14,415 nucleotides of DNA, from the UHGV virus genome UHGV-0068976, one strand, 5' to 3'. Below, one piece after another: positions 6,018 through 13,300 of the stretch; the stretch's first letter is position 1; each line of letters opens with the position of its first letter. Under the pieces are notes generated by a model that was given only the letters and a program-made list of their open reading frames with translations, was not told the origin of the DNA and did not search any database. Made by a program: the position numbers and the translations under genes. This DNA comes from a virus.

Positions 6018-6260
6018 TTAACCATCAACAAACTCTTCTGGTAATTTATCAACCAGTTGATGACTTATTATCAGCCATTTGCCATCCTTCGTTTCGTATG
6101 CATATTTCTGGTCTTTTATCATCATGTGTTCGGCTACTGCCCTAACTGCCTGATCGGTGACATCTTCTCTCTTTCCTACCCACATTCCTTTTTCAGTGTT
6201 TAATGTTCCTTGAAAAATACGACCGCTTAATGGGCTTGCGCCCATAGTTTTTACTCTCAT
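6018..6260 (-). CDS. Hypothetical protein (80 aa)
   Basis: ORF in the N-cIII interval; ATG at 6258-6260. No recognised motif. Confidence 0.5.
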   Translation of the reverse strand: MRVKTMGASPLSGRIFQGTLNTEKGMWVGKREDVTDQAVRAVAEHMMIKDQKYAYETKDGKWLIISHQLVDKLPEEFVDG

Positions 6261-6324
6261 GTATCAGCTCTCAAATAAGTGGTTTGCTGCCAAAACAATG
6301 AACCATCCGGAAATTCCAGATAGT

Positions 6325-6549
6325 TCATAATTCACTCTTCAATACTTCCAACTTACTAATCGCCGATAGATATCCGCGCTGATAGGGCATCATCATTCCT
6401 TCGAGCTTGCCACTTCTTAACTCCTCCCTGAGCAATTGTATTGCTTGATCAATAACCTCTGACTTAGCGTCCTTTATGGCTTGCTTGCGGGGCTTTGCTT
6501 TCTGCTTTGGCAGATTTCTCAAGCATGATGGAATGTATGTCTGATTCAT
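6325..6549 (-). CDS. Hypothetical protein (74 aa)
   Basis: ORF starting 3 nt after the N stop (TAA GTG ATG) with GAGG upstream. Lys/Arg-rich N-terminal half. The ORF track's first codon is the GTG at 6550-6552. Confidence 0.5.
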   Translation of the reverse strand: MNQTYIPSCLRNLPKQKAKPRKQAIKDAKSEVIDQAIQLLREELRSGKLEGMMMPYQRGYLSAISKLEVLKSEL

Positions 6550-6552
6550 CAC

Positions 6553-6825
6553 TTACCTCGCTGTCAGTTGTTTTGATTTCCGGTATCCTGCCGCGTAAAG
6601 AGCTACGTTTGGCAGGCAAATACTTCCACTGCGTTCATCTTCTTCCTTACAGCGAAGGCTTCCGAGTGATGCTGCTTTATCTGCTCTGACGCAACCAGAG
6701 AGCTTTAGCGCAATTTTTCGCGCCAGTGCTTCATTACTGCGTCGCTCGGCAATAAGTTCTGCTCTGCGAGCTTTGTAGCGGCTTTTTGCCGTACCTTTGG
6801 ATTCTTTCCAGACAATGGTTACCAT
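6553..6825 (-). CDS. N: N-like transcription antitermination protein (P22 gp24-like)
   Basis: 90-aa product from ATG at 6823-6825 with SD AAGGAGA. N-terminal arginine-rich motif (GTAKSRYKARRAELIAERR) and C-terminal LPNVALYAAGYRKSKQLTAR, which closely resembles the C-terminus of the P22 N-like protein as recalled. Lies directly downstream of a boxA/boxB nut site and the pL/OL region. Confidence 0.8.
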   Translation of the reverse strand: MVTIVWKESKGTAKSRYKARRAELIAERRSNEALARKIALKLSGCVRADKAASLGSLRCKEEDERSGSICLPNVALYAAGYRKSKQLTAR

Positions 6826-6935
6826 GATGGTCTCCTTTAAGTGGCTTTGGCGCATGACGCGTCGAGGTGCTTATCTTCTCGATCGCTGTCTTGCAGCTGC
6901 AATTCGCGCCATCCCCAAAACCACTCAAGTTCTGG

Positions 6936-6975
6936 TCTCAACGGTTAGGTTGAGAGTCCGTCGATGTTAAAGAGC
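6936..6975 (-). promoter_or_regulatory. nutL site (boxA plus boxB hairpin) in the pL leader
   Basis: Minus-strand RNA reads GCUCUUUAACA (boxA consensus-like; plus 6965-6975), an 8-nt spacer, then boxB hairpin UCUCAAC-CUAACC-GUUGAGA (plus 6936-6955). The same loop CUAACC with a different stem occurs in the rightward nut site at 9898-9915. Confidence 0.7.
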
Positions 6976-7023
6976 CTGCCAATCTGTTCCTTGTGGCGTC
7001 TCAGCGTCCTGCTGATGGAAATG

Positions 7024-7091
7024 ATAGTCACATATTGTGATTTAATGGTCAATCACAAAATGTGTAAAATAAAGGTGTGACACGTTATGTG
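7024..7091 (-). promoter_or_regulatory. OL operator cluster with candidate pL promoter
   Basis: Three 11-bp dyad sites of the form CAC(A/G)-N3-TGTG: CACAtatTGTG 7029-7039, CACAaaaTGTG 7054-7064, CACGttaTGTG 7081-7091. The same family recurs at OR. Candidate minus-strand -35 TTGACC (plus 7047-7052) with a weak -10 (GACTAT) about 17 bp downstream. Confidence 0.6.
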
Positions 7092-7302
7092 TATGATTTT
7101 TTTGTGTAAATAGTTTTACCCGCGATGGTTTTGCTTACTTAAGTCGGTGGCAACAGCAGGATGGGTGCTGAAAAGTTCGAAAAACGAGCGAAGGGGGGGT
7201 GGCGAGATGGCGGGATATGGGAGTTGTATTAAGAATTATAGTAATTTAATCAATAGTTTGGACCGGCGGGCAGGTGCTGTCCTGATAGTGATCGGCGGGC
7301 AA

Positions 7303-7327
7303 TAAAAAACCCGGCTCGGTGGCCGGG
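7303..7327 (-). terminator. Intrinsic terminator downstream of the two-gene cassette
   Basis: Minus-strand RNA: CCCGGC-CACCGA-GCCGGG followed by UUUUUUAUU (plus-strand stem 7310-7327, A-run 7303-7309). Lies 8 nt past the stop of the 310-aa gene. Confidence 0.7.
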
Positions 7328-7334
7328 TGAGATA

Positions 7335-8267
7335 TTAAAGAACCGATTTAACAAGATGGTTTTTACGGTACAGACCTATGCGATCATTGTGAATCTCAGT
7401 AGTCTCCACTAAAAGAGAAACAATCTGTCCGACCTTGTGTTTTTTTTGTATTAAATCTAGCATTTCAATCGGATAGGAAGCCTTTAAATGTTCACCACCA
7501 ACATCAAGCTCCAGCTTCCCATATTTGGATAGAACGACCAGTTCGCCTGTAACCGTTTCAGTAATGGGAGGGGATGAAATGGTTGATGTAAGTCTACTCA
7601 CCAAGTACTTAATTTTATTGGAGTCAATAGTTGCCACCTTGGTGCCATTACTAAATGGACCGGTCCAACTTGCATCAAATGTTAAGTTGTGTTTATCGCA
7701 TTCCTCTACGATTCTCTTAAGGCTTACAGTGGAATTGTATCCAATTTCAGCGACGTGATTCATGAAGTTGTTGTCGTCATCGCTTAACAACAAATCGAAT
7801 ATGCCTTTTACAGCCTTGCTGGGTACTGTTTCTACTAATTCTGCTATTCCTGTAGAGAAGGTGACGCCCAATTTTGTAGACCCAGGGGATAAATCAGCCA
7901 GCCTGAGGTTTAAGGAGCTTTTCACGTCGTAGGGAACTTTTTTTGAGTCCTTGCCTGAGGCAATTTTGTGTGTTGCTCTTTGTATTAGCGCTGCAAGATT
8001 TGTTGAAATAGCCCCAAGCAGCTCTAAAGGAATAGAGCCAAAGTCAACCTCAGAGCCTTTCAGCCGCAGCTCAAAAAAATCGATAAGTGGGTGCCGACTA
8101 TCTTGCTTTAATTTTTCGGCCTTCAAATCGCTCAGATGAGAATCCATGGAGCGATAAAGAAGCATGTCAGCAAAGGACCTGGTTTTGTTTTGCTTCATTG
8201 CATCGACTTCTTTTTGAATGAAATCAATGCGTTTATCGCAATTTTTAAACATTGATTTATCATTCAT
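7335..8267 (-). CDS. Hypothetical 310-aa protein, second gene of the accessory cassette in the cI-pL interval
   Basis: Long ORF in AT-rich DNA. ATG at 8265-8267 overlaps the upstream gene's TGA (ATGA coupling) with SD GAGGA 7 nt upstream. No recognisable catalytic motif by eye. Followed by a strong terminator. Confidence 0.8.
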   Translation of the reverse strand: MNDKSMFKNCDKRIDFIQKEVDAMKQNKTRSFADMLLYRSMDSHLSDLKAEKLKQDSRHPLIDFFELRLKGSEVDFGSIPLELLGAISTNLAALIQRATHKIASGKDSKKVPYDVKSSLNLRLADLSPGSTKLGVTFSTGIAELVETVPSKAVKGIFDLLLSDDDNNFMNHVAEIGYNSTVSLKRIVEECDKHNLTFDASWTGPFSNGTKVATIDSNKIKYLVSRLTSTISSPPITETVTGELVVLSKYGKLELDVGGEHLKASYPIEMLDLIQKKHKVGQIVSLLVETTEIHNDRIGLYRKNHLVKSVL

Positions 8268-8743
8268 AAAAAAATCCTCACTAACCCTTTCGGGTTTTCA
8301 CTGCGATCAAAACCAAACCAACCGCGCCAGTAGCTACGCCAGTACTCATAATCATAGTTAGGGTCATCTAAATTCTTCATGAGTAGTAGGACATCAATTT
8401 TGTAGTTTTGTTTGATGTAGTTTCGGTCAAGCAAATTATCGACGCGGCCCCGAAGCATGACAGGTATTGAGTTTATATTGCTATAGTCACATACCAACAA
8501 AATATCAATATCATCAGGCTCTGGTTTAGACGTGGTGTATGAACCATCAACCCATATTTCTGTAAAACAGCCATATTGAGCAGATAATTCTCGAATAGAT
8601 TCGAGTAGCTGTATAAAATTACAGTATAGCATGCCTCGCCTGGATGATGAAGGAAAGCAATCGACACAATACGATTTTAATCCAGCTTCATCCATGTCAT
8701 GGAACCCTGGCTCAAACAGGGGTGGGTAATTAATTTTATCCAT
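8264..8743 (-). CDS. Minimal nucleotidyltransferase-fold protein (Pol-beta superfamily-like), first gene of the accessory cassette
   Basis: 159-aa ORF with AAGG SD. Contains GS-x9-D-x-D (VDGSYTTSKPEPDDIDILLV), the signature arrangement of Pol-beta-type/minimal nucleotidyltransferases, with a further acidic residue on a hydrophobic stretch (KIDVLLLM). AT-rich codon usage. Confidence 0.8.
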   Translation of the reverse strand: MDKINYPPLFEPGFHDMDEAGLKSYCVDCFPSSSRRGMLYCNFIQLLESIRELSAQYGCFTEIWVDGSYTTSKPEPDDIDILLVCDYSNINSIPVMLRGRVDNLLDRNYIKQNYKIDVLLLMKNLDDPNYDYEYWRSYWRGWFGFDRSENPKGLVRIFL

Positions 8744-8891
8744 AAAAAACCTTGCTATACATTTGTTTTTTTATTAAAAATCTAACCACCGAAATGGTGA
8801 CGGCAAGATGTTACATGGGGTTACAATCAGCCAATACACCGCATTAAATAATTTTTTCACCAGCTATGCGCCGACCAGAACACCTTGCCCA

Positions 8892-9539
8892 TCACCCAAA
8901 CGTCTCTTCAGGCCACTGCGCCTTAACTACCTTGCCTATGATGCGGCAGCTATGGTCGCAATCCAGGGTTCTATATGCCGGGTTTAAAGGTACCAGGTAA
9001 CTAACCCCTGCATCCTTCTCATACTTCTTGAACGTTGCCTCTGAATCACCATTTGCAGAAGCCACGCAGAAATCCCCAGACTCTACCGGCTCAGCCGGAT
9101 CAACGAGTATCAGCATGCCTTCCGGAAAACTTGGACGAACCCCCTGAGGCGCCGTCATTGAATGCCCCTTCACCTCAAGCCAGAAAGCTTTTTCGCTGGC
9201 TTTTGTGGTCGTTGGGACCCATGCCTTTGCATCGCTGGCTGTGTAGCTTCCCACCTCCGAAAATGGCCCGGCCTGCACTGAAGAAAATAACGGGTATTCA
9301 TATTGGCGAAATACGGCGTCTGAATCCTCGCCAAACATTATTTTTGCCGGAGATACGCCGAGTGCCGCCCCAAGAACCAGCGCGTCATCCGCGCTAACCT
9401 TTCTTGTTCCTAACTCGTAGTTCCCCAGGCGTGAAGGCGCAGCCCAGCCGCAAAGCTTGGCCAATTGAGCCTGGCTAAGTCCTTTAGCTTCTCTAAGGGA
9501 CTTGATCCTTTCCCCGATAATTTCATGCATCGTTTTCAT
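8892..9539 (-). CDS. cI: CI-like phage repressor (N-terminal HTH, C-terminal LexA/S24-type autopeptidase)
   Basis: 215-aa ORF divergent from a cro-like gene across an operator-bearing intergenic region. N-terminal HTH segment ([24 protein letters not shown]), candidate Ala-Gly cleavage site (VQAGP), and serine/lysine dyad motifs (GHSM; FKKY) typical of S24 self-cleaving repressors. Confidence 0.9.
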
Positions 9540-9552
9540 CCCTTAAATGTAA

Positions 9553-9617
9553 CACGCAACGTGATTGAACTCTGTACACGAATTGAGGTTGACTGTTAAT
9601 CACAAATTGTGTGTAAT
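9553..9617. promoter_or_regulatory. OR operator cluster with candidate pR (and divergent pRM) between cI and cro
   Basis: Three dyad sites spaced 24 bp: CACGcaaCGTG 9553-9563, CACGaatTGAG 9577-9587 (imperfect), CACAaatTGTG 9601-9611. Same family as OL. Candidate pR -35 TTGACT 9589-9594, 17-bp spacer, -10 TGTAAT 9612-9617. The cI start codon has almost no leader, consistent with a lambda-like leaderless pRM transcript. Confidence 0.6.
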
Positions 9618-9647
9618 GGGTGTGTGATTAATACTAGGGAGACCGCA

Positions 9648-9866
9648 ATGAACAAAATTGCCCAGCAGCGAAAAAAAATCGGAGTTTCGCAAGCTGTACT
9701 AGCTTCGGCAATTGGTTGGGGGCAATCCCGCATCGCCAACTATGAGCTGAATATCCGTACTCCTGGCCTTAACGATTGCCGAATGATCGTAGAAGGCCTC
9801 AGGAAGTTAGGGTGCCAATGTTCTTTGGATGATGTTTTCCCTCCATCCAGTAACAAAGCCGCCTAA
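9648..9866 (+). CDS. cro: Cro-like HTH (XRE-family) regulator
   Basis: 72-aa product from ATG at 9648-9650 with SD GGGAGA. HTH segment (IGVSQAVLASAIGWGQSRIANYE). Divergently oriented from cI across the operators. Confidence 0.8.
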   Translation: MNKIAQQRKKIGVSQAVLASAIGWGQSRIANYELNIRTPGLNDCRMIVEGLRKLGCQCSLDDVFPPSSNKAA

Positions 9867-9874
9867 GCAGTACC

Positions 9875-9915
9875 CGCTCTTTAACAGTCATGGCCTTTCA
9901 CCTCTAACCGGGTGA
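9875..9915 (+). promoter_or_regulatory. nutR site (boxA plus boxB hairpin) downstream of cro
   Basis: Plus strand: CGCTCTTTAACA (9875-9886, boxA consensus-like), spacer, then hairpin UCACCU-CUAACC-GGGUGA (9898-9915, one U.G pair). The loop CUAACC is identical to the nutL boxB loop while the stem differs. Confidence 0.65.
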
Positions 9916-9983
9916 GCAAACATCAGCGGCAAATCCATTGGGTGTGCCGCTATAACTCAATATCAATATAGGAAAATTAACAA

Positions 9984-10280
9984 ATGACACAAGCAAGTTA
10001 CAGCAAGCCAACACAGCGAGAAATTGATCGCGCTGAAACTGATTTACTCATCAACCTGTCAACGCTTACCCAGCGCGGTCTGGCAAAGATGATTGGCTGT
10101 CATGAATCGAAGATAAGCAGAACGGACTGGAGATTTATTGCTTCGGTCTTGTGTGCTTTCGGAATGGCATCAGACATCAGTCCGATTAGCAGGGCTTTTA
10201 AGTATGCGCTTGATGAAATCACAAAGAAAAAATCCCCGGCTGCCACCGAGGATTTTAAGCAAATTGATATGCAATTCTGA
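9984..10280 (+). CDS. cII: CII-like transcriptional activator
   Basis: 98-aa ORF immediately after cro/nutR. C-terminal [18 protein letters not shown] closely parallels the lambda CII C-terminus (KKRPAATERSEQIQMEF) as recalled; central HTH-like [14 protein letters not shown]. Confidence 0.85.
9993..10006 (-). promoter_or_regulatory. Candidate CII-binding direct repeat (TTGC-N6-TTGC) of a pRE-type promoter
   Basis: Minus strand reads TTGCtgtaacTTGC, matching the known CII recognition pattern, and lies just inside the 5' end of cII as in lambda. An AT-rich -10-like region follows leftward. Confidence 0.5.
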
Positions 10281-10312: not shown

Positions 10313-10459
10313 ATGACAAAACAACTCAGTCCTTACCAGGACAAAATTCACAAACACATACTACGTGATCGCTTCCTGTCCAGCTTCAAGCAGCCTGGTC
10401 GATTCCGGTCTGAGTTGGAAAAAGTGAAGCTGATGCAGAAGGAGAAAGGTCATGAGTAA
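10313..10459 (+). CDS. Hypothetical small protein (48 aa)
   Basis: Hand-translated ORF ([48 protein letters not shown]) with SD GGAG 5 nt upstream. Its TAA overlaps the O-like gene start (ATGAGTAA). Confidence 0.45.
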
Positions 10460-11312
10460 TATTGCAACCGTAACACATTTAAGGCCTTCACAACGGCCTG
10501 TGGAGCGTCGTGTGGCAGAAGTTGAAGATGGTTATACCCGTCTTGCAAATGCCCTGTATGAAGAGCTTATCGGCGCAGATTTAACGAAAAATCAGAGCAA
10601 GGTTGCCCACGCCATATGCCGTAAAACATACGGCTACGGTAAAAAGATGGATCGCATCTCTGATAGTCAGTTAGCTCAAATTACCAGGCTGCCAAGACAG
10701 AAGGTAAACAAGGCCAAGAATGAGCTTATCGCGATGAAGGTTATCCTTCGCGAAGGCCAGCAAATCGGGCCTAACAAGAACATCGAGGAATGGCAAATCG
10801 AAGGGTGTCACTACTCTGGTGATAATGTCACTGCATTGGTGACAAAAAGTGTCACCAAAACGGTGACAGCGCTGTCACCAAAACAGGGACACACAAAAGA
10901 AACTATTACAAAAGAAAAAAGAAATAATAAAAACACTATGTCCGAAAGTGTTCGGACGGAGTGTGAAAAATCACCTGACCGTCACGAAGAAACCGACAAG
11001 GCATTCGAGGAAATATTCTGGTGTGCAGGCATGCGGAAAGCCGGGAAGAAAAACGCAGCTTCGGCATTCAGAACACAGTTCAGGGAATGGCGTAAAACTA
11101 CCAGGGGTACGGCAAGCGAGTTTGCCACGATGCTGGCAGAAGACATCGCATGCAGGAATGGTAAGCAGTTCGGATTCGACAGGTTGTTACCATCGAGCTA
11201 CCTGAACGGTCAGCGCTGGAACGACGAGAAGCCAGAAACCATTCAACCACAATCCAAACCATCATCCGCAATCACCGTATCGAAAACTGGCTACGTGTTT
11301 TTCGACAGGTGA
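10452..11312 (+). CDS. O: Replication initiator, lambda O-like
   Basis: 286-aa ORF. N-terminal domain strongly resembles lambda O as recalled ([58 protein letters not shown]). Iteron-like repeats and an AT-rich tract lie inside the coding sequence, as for ori-lambda. Confidence 0.85.
10807..10940. repeat. Origin-like iteron array plus AT-rich tract inside the O-like gene
   Basis: Four 19-bp dyad-containing repeats: degenerate GTCACtactctGGTGAT 10807-10825, TGTCACtgcattgGTGACA 10826-10844, TGTCACCaaaacGGTGACA 10850-10868, TGTCACCaaaacAGGGACA 10873-10891. Followed by an A/T-rich stretch to about 10940. Confidence 0.7.
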
Positions 11313-11315
11313 ACC

Positions 11316-11423
11316 ATGAAATCAAAAATCAAATCGCTACTGGTCGCTGGTTATAACCACGGCTGGTTAAGTATTTCGTTTGTCGATTTCTGGTTTAAAA
11401 ATCTCAATCTGAGGGAATCATGA
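11316..11423 (+). CDS. Hypothetical small hydrophobic peptide (35 aa)
   Basis: Hand-translated ORF (MKSKIKSLLVAGYNHGWLSISFVDFWFKNLNLRES) between the O stop and the primase-helicase start; its TGA overlaps the downstream ATG (ATGA). Weak SD. May simply be spacer. Confidence 0.25.
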   Translation: MKSKIKSLLVAGYNHGWLSISFVDFWFKNLNLRES

Positions 11424-13300
11424 CGCCAAGTGAACTCAGTGACCTGCTTTGGGCGCAGGTTGACAGGGTGGCTCCGCACCTGTTGCCAAACGGCAAGAAA
11501 GAGGGGCATGAGTGGGTTGCCGGTAACGTCAACGGTGACAAGGGAAACAGCCTTAAGGTCAACCTTAGCGGCAAGAAAAAATGGGCTGATTTCGCTGAGG
11601 GAGACGGCGGTGACATGCTTGATTTGTGGATGGCATGTCGTGGAATTAACCTGCATCAGGCTATGCAGGAAGCGAAAGCCTTTCTCGGAATCAAGGATGA
11701 CGATCACCATTTCGATGCCAAACGTGAGAAGAAATTCTCCAGACCTGACCGCAAGAAAATCGCCCGCTACGTTACCAGAACAGAATCCCATCTTGAGTAC
11801 CTGCAATCGCGTGGCATATCGCCAGAAGTCGTAAAGCGCTACGAGGTTGTCAGCGGCAAGGTGTGGAATGGAGAACGGGAACTGGATGCTCTGGTGATTC
11901 CGTACAAACGCGATGGTGAGTTGTTGCAGGTCAAGCGAATCAGCACTGAGCGCCCGGACGGGAAGAAAGTCATTATGGCAGAAGGTGATTGCGAACCTTG
12001 TCTGTTCGGATGGCAGGCTCTGGACGCTGGCGTGAGGGCGGTTGTACTTTGCGAAGGCGAAATTGATTGTATGAGCTATGCGCAATATGGCATCTCGGCG
12101 TTATCCGTGCCGTTTGGTGGCGGGAAAGGCGCTAAACAGCAGTGGATTGAGTTTGAGTATCACAACCTCGACAGGTTTGAGGAAATATTCATCTCGATGG
12201 ACGTTGATGATGTTGGTCGTGAAGCCGCAAGGGAAATCGCAAGCCGACTCGGTGAACATCGTTGCCGTCTTGTTACTCTGCCGTACAAAGACATCAACGA
12301 ATGCCTGATGAACGGTGTTACCGAGGATGAAATCTGGCAGTACATCGGCACGGCATCCTACTTCGATCCTGAAGAACTCTACAGTGCGCGAGAGTTTTAC
12401 CAGGACACTATCAACGCTTTCTACGGCAAGCAGCAGTATCTGTTTAATCCACTGTGGGAATCTCTGGCAGATAAATTCCAGTTCCGTGAGGCAGAGTTGA
12501 CGCTGGTCAATGGTGTGAACGGTCACGGAAAAACGGAGGTTGTAGGGCATATGGCACTTGAGGCAATGCGTCAGGGTGTGAAGACGTGCATCGCGTCACT
12601 TGAGCTGAAGCCAGGCATTCTCCTTAAGCGACTTACCCGTCAGGCGACGTGCTGCAAGATGCCGCCAGTGCTGGAAATTGACTCTGCATTTAAATTTTAT
12701 GACGAAAGACTTTGGGTGTTTGGCCTGACCGGAACGGCGAAAGCCGACAGGCTGATCGAAATATTCGACTACGCTCGCCGCCGATACGGCATCCAGTTAT
12801 TCATCATCGACAGCCTGATGAAATGTGGCATAGGCGACGATGACTATAACGGGCAGAAGGCGTTTGTTGACTCGATTTGCGATTTCAAAAACAAAACAAA
12901 CTCCCACGTCATTCTCGTTACTCACTCGCGAAAAGGTGACAGCGAAGAAAAACCAACCGGGAAAATGGACGTAAAAGGATCTGGAGCGATAACAGACCTG
13001 ACAGACAACCTTTTCATCATCTGGCGTAACAAGGCTCGCGAGAGAGCGTTACAGAGAGTTCAGAGTGGTGAAAAGATGTCAGAGAAGGACGAACAGCTAC
13101 TGGCATCTCCGGCATCTGTTTTGATGCTTGAAAAGCAACGTAACGGCGAAGGTTGGGAAGGTGGTGTCCCGTTGTTCCTTGACGAGCAATCGCACCAGTT
13201 CCTGCAACTTGAATCAGGATCGCCTTATAGCTACATCGCCAATATGCCGAAATCGGAATATGACGAGGCGTGGCGACAGGAAAACGTGACGGAGTATTAA
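11420..13300 (+). CDS. Bifunctional DNA primase/helicase (TOPRIM domain plus RecA/DnaB-like NTPase)
   Basis: 626-aa ORF with SD GAGGGAA. TOPRIM-like acidic motifs (VVLCEGEIDCMSY; ISMDVDDVGRE), Walker A (GVNGHGKT) and Walker B-like (LFIIDSLMK) motifs. Occupies the slot of lambda P / P22 gene 12 after the initiator. Confidence 0.85.
   Translation: MTPSELSDLLWAQVDRVAPHLLPNGKKEGHEWVAGNVNGDKGNSLKVNLSGKKKWADFAEGDGGDMLDLWMACRGINLHQAMQEAKAFLGIKDDDHHFDAKREKKFSRPDRKKIARYVTRTESHLEYLQSRGISPEVVKRYEVVSGKVWNGERELDALVIPYKRDGELLQVKRISTERPDGKKVIMAEGDCEPCLFGWQALDAGVRAVVLCEGEIDCMSYAQYGISALSVPFGGGKGAKQQWIEFEYHNLDRFEEIFISMDVDDVGREAAREIASRLGEHRCRLVTLPYKDINECLMNGVTEDEIWQYIGTASYFDPEELYSAREFYQDTINAFYGKQQYLFNPLWESLADKFQFREAELTLVNGVNGHGKTEVVGHMALEAMRQGVKTCIASLELKPGILLKRLTRQATCCKMPPVLEIDSAFKFYDERLWVFGLTGTAKADRLIEIFDYARRRYGIQLFIIDSLMKCGIGDDDYNGQKAFVDSICDFKNKTNSHVILVTHSRKGDSEEKPTGKMDVKGSGAITDLTDNLFIIWRNKARERALQRVQSGEKMSEKDEQLLASPASVLMLEKQRNGEGWEGGVPLFLDEQSHQFLQLESGSPYSYIANMPKSEYDEAWRQENVTEY

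What the first reader, a model, noticed from the sequence alone, without database searches (positions are those of the whole stretch)
6936..6975. nutL: boxA consensus plus a boxB hairpin whose loop matches nutR while the stem differs
In the pL leader the minus-strand transcript has GCUCUUUAACA followed after 8 nt by UCUCAAC-CUAACC-GUUGAGA. The rightward site at 9898-9915 has the same 6-nt loop (CUAACC) on a different stem (UCACCU/GGGUGA). Conservation of the loop with stem covariation is what is expected of functional boxB RNAs recognised by the arginine-rich motif of the N-like protein at 6553..6825. The loop differs from the lambda and P22 boxB loops as I recall them, suggesting a distinct N/boxB specificity class.
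Basis: partly seen in the sequence, partly recalled or inferred. Interest (0 to 1): 0.4.

Follow-up and report, generated by a model that had tools for sequence, protein, structure and literature searches.

The report
Phage 21-type nutL/nutR antitermination sites

Summary
On the minus strand, boxA GCUCUUUAACA (6975-6965) is followed after 9 nt (not 8) by UCUCAAC-CUAACC-GUUGAGA (6955-6936). On the plus strand the same boxA (9876-9886) precedes UUCACCU-CUAACC-GGGUGAG (9897-9916). Chance does not explain this: 0 of 2000 shuffles gave two such hairpins.

It is not a new specificity class. The 60-nt nutL stretch is 60/60 identical to the annotated boxA-L/nutL of Escherichia phage 21 (OL657228.1), and the nutR boxB is also identical. 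N residues 1-60 equal phage 21 N. Residues 8-29 are 100% identical to the peptide in PDB 1NYB, the NMR structure of the phi21 N peptide bound to its boxB RNA, whose "CUAACC hexaloop" is described in the literature. The cI repressor is 100% identical to that of Stx1 phage VT1-Sakai, whose record already annotates both nut sites.

Across about 160 related viral loci the GTAKSRYKARRA arginine-rich motif always travels with the CUAACC loop (CUAAUC in one distant relative). An alternative motif of the HK620 type, on the same N body, travels with a CGAAAU hairpin.

Verdict: interpretation supported, already known, low interest.

The parts
7024..7052 (-). pL promoter (-35 TTGACC at 7052-7047, 17-nt spacer, -10 GACTAT at 7029-7024); transcription start near 7016
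   Evidence: Read. Coordinates were transferred from the VT1-Sakai annotation 'putative major leftward promotor' through the single-piece 594-nt match of equal length on both sides, which I assumed to be ungapped. The phage 21 'transcription start pL' maps to about 7016, and homology to phage 21 begins at 7018. The generic promoter scan did not detect it.
7026..7094 (-). OL operators (three 17-bp sites at about 7094-7078, 7067-7051 and 7042-7026)
   Evidence: Transferred from the VT1-Sakai 'putative operator' features. cI is 100% identical to VT1-Sakai cI.
6965..6975 (-). nutL boxA, GCUCUUUAACA (rrn-type consensus core GCUCUUUA)
   Evidence: Identical to the phage 21 boxA-L. Consensus from PMC2724277.
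6936..6955 (-). nutL boxB hairpin UCUCAAC-CUAACC-GUUGAGA (7 bp stem, hexaloop)
   Evidence: 60/60 identical to the phage 21 nutL region. Present in all 67 loci with the phi21 ARM in the first set, one of them with a G-to-A change in the closing pair.
6553..6825 (-). N antiterminator gene (90 aa). ARM = residues about 8-29. Residues 1-60 equal phage 21 N. The C-terminal 26 aa are of the VT1-Sakai/HK620 type.
   Evidence: Pfam PF25694; PHROG 271; 1NYB peptide identity.
9648..9866 (+). cro-like HTH gene, the first gene of the pR operon, immediately upstream of nutR
   Evidence: Pfam HTH_3. Same position and length as VT1-Sakai cro.
9876..9886 (+). nutR boxA, GCUCUUUAACA
9897..9916 (+). nutR boxB hairpin UUCACCU-CUAACC-GGGUGAG
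   Evidence: Identical to the annotated phage 21 nutR stem-loop. Present in 64 of 67 phi21-ARM loci.
9917..9983 (+). nutR-to-cII interval, the expected position of the Rho-dependent tR1
   Evidence: Inferred from the tR1 annotations at the same place in phage 21, VT1-Sakai and HK620. Not testable by sequence.
6298..6328 (-). Terminator-like hairpin downstream of N and the 75-aa ORF (candidate tL1). Further ones lie at 5889-5872 and 5851-5832.
   Evidence: Consensus scan only. HK620 annotates tL1/tL2 at comparable positions.
8892..9539 (-). cI repressor (HTH + S24 peptidase)
   Evidence: Pfam. 212/212 identical to VT1-Sakai cI.

Best explanation
These are the nutL and nutR sites of a phage 21-type N antitermination system in a lambdoid E. 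coli prophage whose immunity region is that of Stx1 phage VT1-Sakai. Transcripts from pL (start near 7016, minus strand) and from pR (through cro, plus strand) each carry boxA and then boxB. The N protein is translated from the pL transcript. Its N-terminal arginine-rich helix (residues about 8-29, ESKGTAKSRYKARRAELIAERR) binds the CUAACC hexaloop and apical stem of boxB. Host NusB/NusE(S10) bind boxA, and NusA/NusG join. The looped RNA delivers N to the elongating RNA polymerase, which then reads through tL and tR terminators into the recombination and replication/late genes. What is shown here: sequence identity of both RNA sites and of the ARM to the experimentally characterised phage 21 components; their positions in the pL and pR leaders; and strict co-inheritance of ARM type and boxB loop. 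What is inferred from established lambda and phage 21 biology: binding, Nus dependence and terminator read-through in this particular prophage.
For: The nutL region is 60/60 identical to phage 21 OL657228.1, whose record annotates boxA-L and a nutL stem_loop at those bases. The nutR boxB is identical to its annotated nutR. N residues 1-60 are identical to phage 21 N, and residues 8-29 are identical to PDB 1NYB chain A. [quoted passage not shown] The protein matches Pfam N_peptide at E = 1e-17. VT1-Sakai annotates 'putative N-utilization leftward/rightward' at the homologous positions and calls its N 'similar to bacteriophage phi-21 N'. Co-inheritance: all 67 phi21-ARM loci have the CUAACC nutL (one with a G-to-A change in the closing pair) and 64 of 67 have the CUAACC nutR, while 0 of 16 alternative-ARM loci have any CTAACC hairpin. 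The same held on a second N body in 23 of 23 parsed loci, plus 3 more read by hand. HK620-type ARMs pair with UCCCGC-CGAAAU-GCGGGA at both nut sites behind the same boxA. Stem covariation: 6 of 7 pairs show changes on both sides, 93.9% of cells are paired versus 68% in shuffles, and 5 of 6 loop positions are invariant. Chance is excluded.
Against: No functional data exist for this particular prophage. The C-terminal 26 residues of N differ from phage 21 N. By analogy with lambda N, this region binds RNA polymerase. The same hybrid exists in the viable phages VT1-Sakai and mEpX1. Rfam has no family that reports these sites. The 51-nt context folds are no more stable than shuffles. The covariation alignment was assembled from sequences I had already picked as hairpins, so its statistics lean towards the structure.
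Confidence: 0.96

Rival explanations
1. The hairpins are a new N/boxB specificity class, distinct from all characterised lambdoid systems.
For: The loop is a hexaloop, CUAACC, unlike the lambda pentaloop (nutR boxB agcccugaaaaagggc; PMC2724277).
Against: The RNA and the ARM are identical to those of phage 21, which has a solved N peptide-boxB complex.
Confidence: 0.01
2. The hairpins are intrinsic terminators, attenuators or RNA-processing sites rather than N-binding sites.
For: They are stable small stem-loops in leader RNAs.
Against: No U-tract follows either stem, and the terminator scan did not call them. Between sites and between phages the loop is conserved while the stem varies, which fits loop-specific recognition. 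The loop tracks the N ARM type.
Confidence: 0.01
3. The inverted repeats act at the DNA level as protein-binding palindromes (operator-like sites).
For: They are perfect or near-perfect inverted repeats close to the immunity region.
Against: The two sites share the non-palindromic centre and differ in the arms, which is the opposite of what a shared DNA-binding protein would require. The real operators map elsewhere, at about 7094-7026. Both sites lie on the transcribed strand directly after boxA.
Confidence: 0.01
4. The nut/N module is intact in sequence but is a silent remnant in a defective prophage, so it has no present function.
For: The window comes from a chromosomal prophage arrangement found in only 5 of 5426 complete E. 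coli genomes. Prophage integrity outside the window is unknown.
Against: N, cI, cro, cII, O and the nut sites are all intact and nearly identical to those of viable phages.
Confidence: 0.03

Closest known systems
Escherichia phage 21 (phi21) N / nutL / nutR (OL657228.1; PDB 1NYB; Cilley & Williamson 2003, RNA 9:663)
   Same: nutL boxA, spacer, boxB and flanks are 60/60 identical. The nutR boxA and boxB are identical. N residues 1-60 are identical, including the whole ARM used in 1NYB. The sites hold the same positions relative to pL/N and cro/cII.
   Different: The C-terminal 26 aa of N are of another type, and N is 90 aa rather than 99 aa. The immunity genes (cI, cro, operators) between the nut sites are not imm21. 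Sequence just upstream of the nutR boxA differs.
Stx1 phage VT1-Sakai (Sp15) early regulatory region (AP000400.1)
   Same: pL/OL, nutL and N are 98% identical over 594 nt. cI is 100% identical. N is 96% identical, including the C-terminus. Both nut sites are annotated in the record.
   Different: There is one spacer base difference in nutL (G/A). VT1-Sakai's nutR boxA region is 3 nt shorter (GCTCTTTCA versus GCTCTTTAACA). The cargo between cI and OL differs (H0053 versus a two-gene PDC-M63-like pair).
HK620 / HK140 / mEp213-type N and nut sites
   Same: Same N body from residue about 34 onward, same boxA GCUCUUUAACA and same architecture.
   Different: The ARM is DDNARNRRRARRQAQREQ, and boxB is UCCCGC-CGAAAU-GCGGGA at both nutL and nutR. 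This is a different recognition pair.
Phage lambda N / boxB (and P22 gp24 / boxB)
   Same: Same logic: boxA + spacer + boxB in the pL and pR leaders, an ARM peptide at the N-terminus of N, and Nus-factor-dependent processive antitermination (PMC2724277).
   Different: The lambda boxB is a 5-bp stem with a GNRA-like pentaloop GAAAA/GAAGA, and its boxA is CGCUCUUA, lacking the extra U. Here the loop is a hexaloop, CUAACC, reported as a U-turn/GNRA-like 'UMAC' fold closed by a C-C pair (PMC12550061). The P22 loop sequence is from my own memory and was not tested.

Membership tests
Phage 21-type N/nut antitermination system | boxB RNA hairpin with a CUAACC hexaloop | tested here: met
   Hairpins at 6955-6936(-) and 9897-9916(+). 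Identical to the annotated phage 21 nutL/nutR stem-loops. The loop is named in PMC12550061.
Phage 21-type N/nut antitermination system | N protein whose N-terminal arginine-rich motif is the phi21 type (GTAKSRYKARRAELIAERR) | tested here: met
   Residues 8-29 are 22/22 identical to 1NYB chain A. Residues 1-60 equal phage 21 N. Pfam PF25694.
Phage 21-type N/nut antitermination system | boxA (NusB/NusE site) about 9-10 nt upstream of boxB on the same transcript | tested here: met
   GCUCUUUAACA at 6975-6965(-) and 9876-9886(+), the only two copies in the window. The spacers are 9 and 10 nt.
Phage 21-type N/nut antitermination system | One site in the pL leader upstream of N, the other downstream of cro and upstream of cII | tested here: met
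   Gene identities from Pfam. Layout is colinear with phage 21, VT1-Sakai and HK620.
Phage 21-type N/nut antitermination system | Co-variation of ARM type and boxB type among relatives (cognate specificity) | tested here: met
   All 67 (nutL) and 64 of 67 (nutR) phi21-ARM loci have CUAACC, against 0 of 16 alternative-ARM loci. The pattern repeated on a second N body.
Phage 21-type N/nut antitermination system | Terminators downstream that N-modified polymerase reads through | tested here: inconclusive
   Terminator-like hairpins at 6328-6298, 5889-5872 and 5851-5832 on the minus strand come from a consensus scan only. A Rho-dependent tR1 cannot be recognised from sequence.
Phage 21-type N/nut antitermination system | Physical N-boxB binding and Nus-dependent antitermination activity | not testable with these tools
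   Inferred from identity to the components of 1NYB and from lambda/phage 21 genetics.
Lambda/P22-type boxB (GNRA-like pentaloop) | 5-nt loop GAAAA/GAAGA (lambda) on a 5-bp G-C-rich stem | tested here: not met
   The loop is 6 nt, CUAACC, on a 7-bp stem. Lambda nutR boxB is agcccugaaaaagggc (PMC2724277).
Rfam curated RNA families | Match at gathering score to any family | tested here: not met
   0 matches in the whole window. No curated family reported these sites.

The most novel reading that the evidence does not exclude
The least ordinary reading not excluded concerns the hybrid N in this window, which joins a phi21 ARM and central region to a VT1-Sakai/HK620-type C-terminus. Together with the loop variant CUAAUC found with the same ARM core in a 49%-identical N (L281), it may point to unexplored sub-specificities within the phi21 class. 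Examples would be tolerance of C5-to-U in the loop, or different polymerase-contact modules combined freely with one RNA-recognition module. That would be a modest extension of known modular evolution of N proteins, not a new system.
Probability: 0.1. Interest if true: 0.2.

Novelty: already known. Interest (0 to 1): 0.07.

Why it matters
It matters little as a discovery. The phage 21 nut sites, their cognate N ARM and the structure of the complex have been known for decades, and the same module is annotated in VT1-Sakai and phage 21 records.

It has some value as annotation. RefSeq labels the N gene of this E. coli prophage type only 'hypothetical protein' and marks no nut sites. The survey here gives a clean natural-swap illustration: the ARM and boxB are exchanged together as one recognition module, while boxA and the rest of N stay constant.

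Tried and rejected
- **Rfam.** A search of the whole window at gathering threshold found nothing, so no curated model covers nut/boxB.
- **Context folding.** Folding each hairpin in 51 nt of context gave z-scores near zero. Only the isolated hairpins stand out, so energy statistics were not used as the main argument.
- **Promoter scan.** The generic promoter scan missed pL, whose -10 GACTAT is weak. I placed pL by homology and by eye instead.
- **Primary paper.** Cilley & Williamson 2003 (PMC1370434) is not held. I therefore relied on papers that cite it and on the PDB sequence match. I could not verify whether the 1NYB RNA carries the nutL or the nutR stem.
- **boxA strings in papers.** Text searches for boxA strings in PMC3177189 and PMC2800207 found nothing. 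PMC2724277 supplied the sequences.
- **Reverse scan.** Of 120 hits, 114 were chance matches without a hairpin. It is not an exhaustive reverse test, though it did reveal the divergent L154 clade.
- **Coordinates.** A first attempt to query with L154 coordinates failed on frame. I used the protein sequence instead.
- **L281 nutR.** No nutR was found within the 4 kb held for L281.

Full report
**1. The observation**

Reading the minus strand gives, downstream of a promoter-like TTGACC-17-GACTAT (7052-7024), the sequence GGCAG-GCTCTTTAACA-TCGACGGAC-TCTCAAC-CTAACC-GTTGAGA-CC.
- boxA is at 6975-6965.
- The spacer is 9 nt.
- The boxB hairpin is at 6955-6936.

On the plus strand, just after the cro-like ORF, the sequence is CC-GCTCTTTAACA-GTCATGGCCT-TTCACCT-CTAACC-GGGTGAG.
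- boxA is at 9876-9886.
- boxB is at 9897-9916.

RNAfold returns exactly these hairpins.

The 11-mer boxA occurs only at these two sites. Two CTAACC-loop hairpins with stems of at least 6 bp never arose in 2000 dinucleotide shuffles (mean 0.0125).

**2. What it is**

The ORF at 6825..6553 is a Pfam N_peptide protein (PF25694, E = 1e-17) and belongs to PHROG 271, 'anti-termination protein N-like'.

The neighbours are those of a lambdoid early region:
- cI (HTH + S24 peptidase, 8892-9539, minus strand)
- cro (9648-9866, plus strand)
- cII (9984-10280)
- O (10452-11312)
- a Toprim/DnaB-like primase-helicase (11420-13300)

A megablast of 6500-7150 against phage records hit phage 21, lambda imm21, DE3, mEpX1, HK629 and VT1-Sakai at 97-98.5% identity.

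The phage 21 record (OL657228.1) annotates the pL start, boxA-L, a nutL stem_loop, N, boxA-R, a nutR stem_loop and tR1.
- Aligned to the window, the 60 nt around nutL are 60/60 identical.
- The nutR boxA, boxB and 3' flank are identical.
- Homology to phage 21 starts at window 7018, within 2 nt of the annotated pL transcription start, and runs to N codon about 61.

N residues 1-60 are identical to phage 21 N. The last 26 residues are instead of the VT1-Sakai/HK620 type.

Searching the PDB with the window's N gave a single hit, 1NYB chain A. This 22-residue peptide is 22/22 identical to residues 8-29.

The literature describes 1NYB as follows.
[quoted passage not shown] The window's boxA GCUCUUUAACA carries the rrn-type consensus core UGCUCUUUA rather than lambda's CGCUCUUA (PMC2724277).

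The window's cI is 212/212 identical to VT1-Sakai cI. That record already annotates 'putative N-utilization leftward/rightward' and calls its N 'similar to bacteriophage phi-21 N'. Transferring its coordinates through the single-piece 594-nt match puts its nutL feature at window 6976-6936, essentially the finding's own coordinates.

**3.

Eighty IMG/VR loci encoding relatives of this N, together with the phage 21 and VT1-Sakai loci and the window itself, split by N-terminus.
- Sixty-seven carry the phi21 ARM.
- Sixteen carry a different ARM (DDNARNRRRARRQAQREQ), fused to the same N body from residue about 34.

All 67 phi21-ARM loci have the UCUCAAC-CUAACC-GUUGAGA nutL, one of them with a G-to-A change in the closing pair. 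Sixty-four also have UUCACCU-CUAACC-GGGUGAG on the opposite strand. The remaining three lacked a detectable nutR in the DNA held, which I did not check further. None of the 16 alternative-ARM loci has any CTAACC-loop hairpin. Twelve of them have GCTCTTTAACA followed by UCCCGC-CGAAAU-GCGGGA. In the other four my parser did not find that arrangement, and I did not look further.

The alternative ARM is that of HK620, HK140, mEp213 and ECP1. HK620's annotated nutL and nutR both contain exactly this CGAAAU hairpin.

A second, more divergent N body (L204-L283) shows the same rule.
- All 23 parsed GTAKSRYKARRA ARMs pair with CUAACC, and 3 more read by hand do the same (L224, L227, L233).
- The DDNARNRRRARR ARMs pair with CGAAAU.

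In that clade nutR is GCUCACCU-CUAACC-GGGUAAGC. The loop and the four apical pairs are kept, while the lower stem is altered and carries a C.A mismatch.

The most distant relative is L281 (49% identity, ARM GTAKSRYKARRAAKVAERR). It has a third stem and a one-base loop variant, CUCCGCU-CUAAUC-GGCGGGG, after a variant boxA UCACUUUAACAA.

I counted pairs on the seven distinct variants.
- Six of 7 pairs have changes on both sides.
- 93.9% of cells are paired, against 68% in shuffles and 49% or less when the partner is slid.
- Five of 6 loop positions are invariant.

These sequences were chosen as hairpins, so the statistic leans towards the structure.

**4. Mechanism**

By identity with the characterised phage 21 components, and by the architecture shared with lambda, the mechanism is as follows.
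- pL and pR transcripts carry boxA and boxB.
- N's ARM helix binds the boxB hexaloop and apical stem.
- NusB/NusE bind boxA.
- With NusA and NusG, N is delivered to RNA polymerase, which becomes resistant to downstream terminators.

Candidate terminators on the pL side lie at 6328-6298, 5889-5872 and 5851-5832. The Rho-dependent tR1 is expected between nutR and cII, as annotated in phage 21, VT1-Sakai and HK620.

Binding and read-through in this prophage are inferred, not shown.

**5. Rivals**

- *A new specificity class.* Excluded by the sequence identity to phage 21 and 1NYB.
- *Terminator or processing hairpins.* Unlikely: no U-tract follows either stem, the loop is conserved while the stem varies, and the loop tracks the ARM type.
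- *DNA-level operator palindromes.* Contradicted by arms that differ between sites around a conserved asymmetric centre. The operators map elsewhere.
- *A silent remnant in a defective prophage.* Cannot be excluded without experiments, but every component is intact.

**6. Comparison, novelty and score**

The feature is a member of the phage 21 N/nut family on every sequence-testable criterion. It is not a lambda/P22-type pentaloop boxB.

The exact arrangement of 6500-10000 occurs at 99.3-99.8% identity in five of the 5426 complete E. coli genomes searched, all on chromosomes. Two of them, FJ_Ec_21 and C3728, match over the full length. The N/nut module occurs in over a thousand genomes.

The finding is already known. 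Interest is low (0.07).

Noticed in passing
window 7335-8743 (-): ORFs 8743..8264 (159 aa) and 8267..7335 (310 aa): Two overlapping genes sit in the rexA/rexB position, downstream of cI and upstream of a strong terminator at 7328-7309 and of OL. They match the PADLOC candidate defence system PDC-M63 (M63A E = 1.8e-41; M63B E = 7.5e-45). The 159-aa protein is Pfam DUF6932. VT1-Sakai, which has an identical cI, carries a different single gene (H0053) here. This looks like a swappable lysogen-expressed defence cargo slot.
   Followed up: partly
window 6553-6630 (-), N codons about 61-90: N is a mosaic. Residues 1-60 equal phage 21 N. The C-terminal 26 aa (EEDERSGSICLPNVALYAAGYRKSKQLTAR) are of the VT1-Sakai/HK620 type rather than phage 21's ...ERKQNRIYYSKPRSEMGVTCVGRQKIKLGSKPLI. 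Among relatives at least three C-terminal modules and two ARMs are recombined around a conserved centre, ARKIALKLSGCVRADKAASLGS.
   Followed up: partly
L029 (IMGVR_UViG_2909262264_000002): nutL about 3870, nutR about 2741: In this one relative both nut sites carry the same G-to-A change at the base immediately 3' of the CUAACC loop. In nutL the closing pair goes from C-G to C.A. In nutR it goes from U.G to U-A. The ARM is unchanged. Parallel change at both sites could mean this position matters for N recognition, or it could be coincidence.
   Followed up: no
L281 3786-3829 (IMGVR_UViG_3300047323_000307): A 49%-identical N with the ARM core GTAKSRYKARRA has a nutL with a variant boxA UCACUUUAACAA and a boxB CUCCGCU-CUAAUC-GGCGGGG. 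This is a one-base loop variant (C5 to U) on a third stem. No nutR was found within the 4 kb of upstream DNA held.
   Followed up: partly
L002 2331-2368 (VT1-Sakai nutR) versus window 9876-9886: VT1-Sakai's nutR boxA region is 3 nt shorter (GCTCTTTCA-TCATGG versus GCTCTTTAACAGTCATGG) although its cI is identical. The window's nutR boxA therefore matches phage 21 rather than VT1-Sakai.
   Followed up: no
window 11420-13300 (+): A 626-aa Toprim + DnaB-like/AAA_25 primase-helicase follows the O-like replication initiator, in place of a lambda P-type helicase loader. The same is seen in Sf101, mEp043 and epsilon34-like phages.
   Followed up: no
window 6325-6552 (-) and 6018-6260 (-): A 75-aa ORF (PHROG 5305, unknown function, no Pfam) starts right at the N stop codon. 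It is followed by a long terminator-like hairpin (6328-6298) and then a DUF7446 gene. These are conserved small early-left genes of unknown function.
   Followed up: no
window 6500-10000: RefSeq/PGAP annotation of the near-identical E. coli chromosomal copies (for example NZ_CP143627.1 and NZ_CP196347.1) lists 'hypothetical protein' under the match and names no antitermination protein N. The N gene and nut sites appear to be unannotated there.
   Followed up: no
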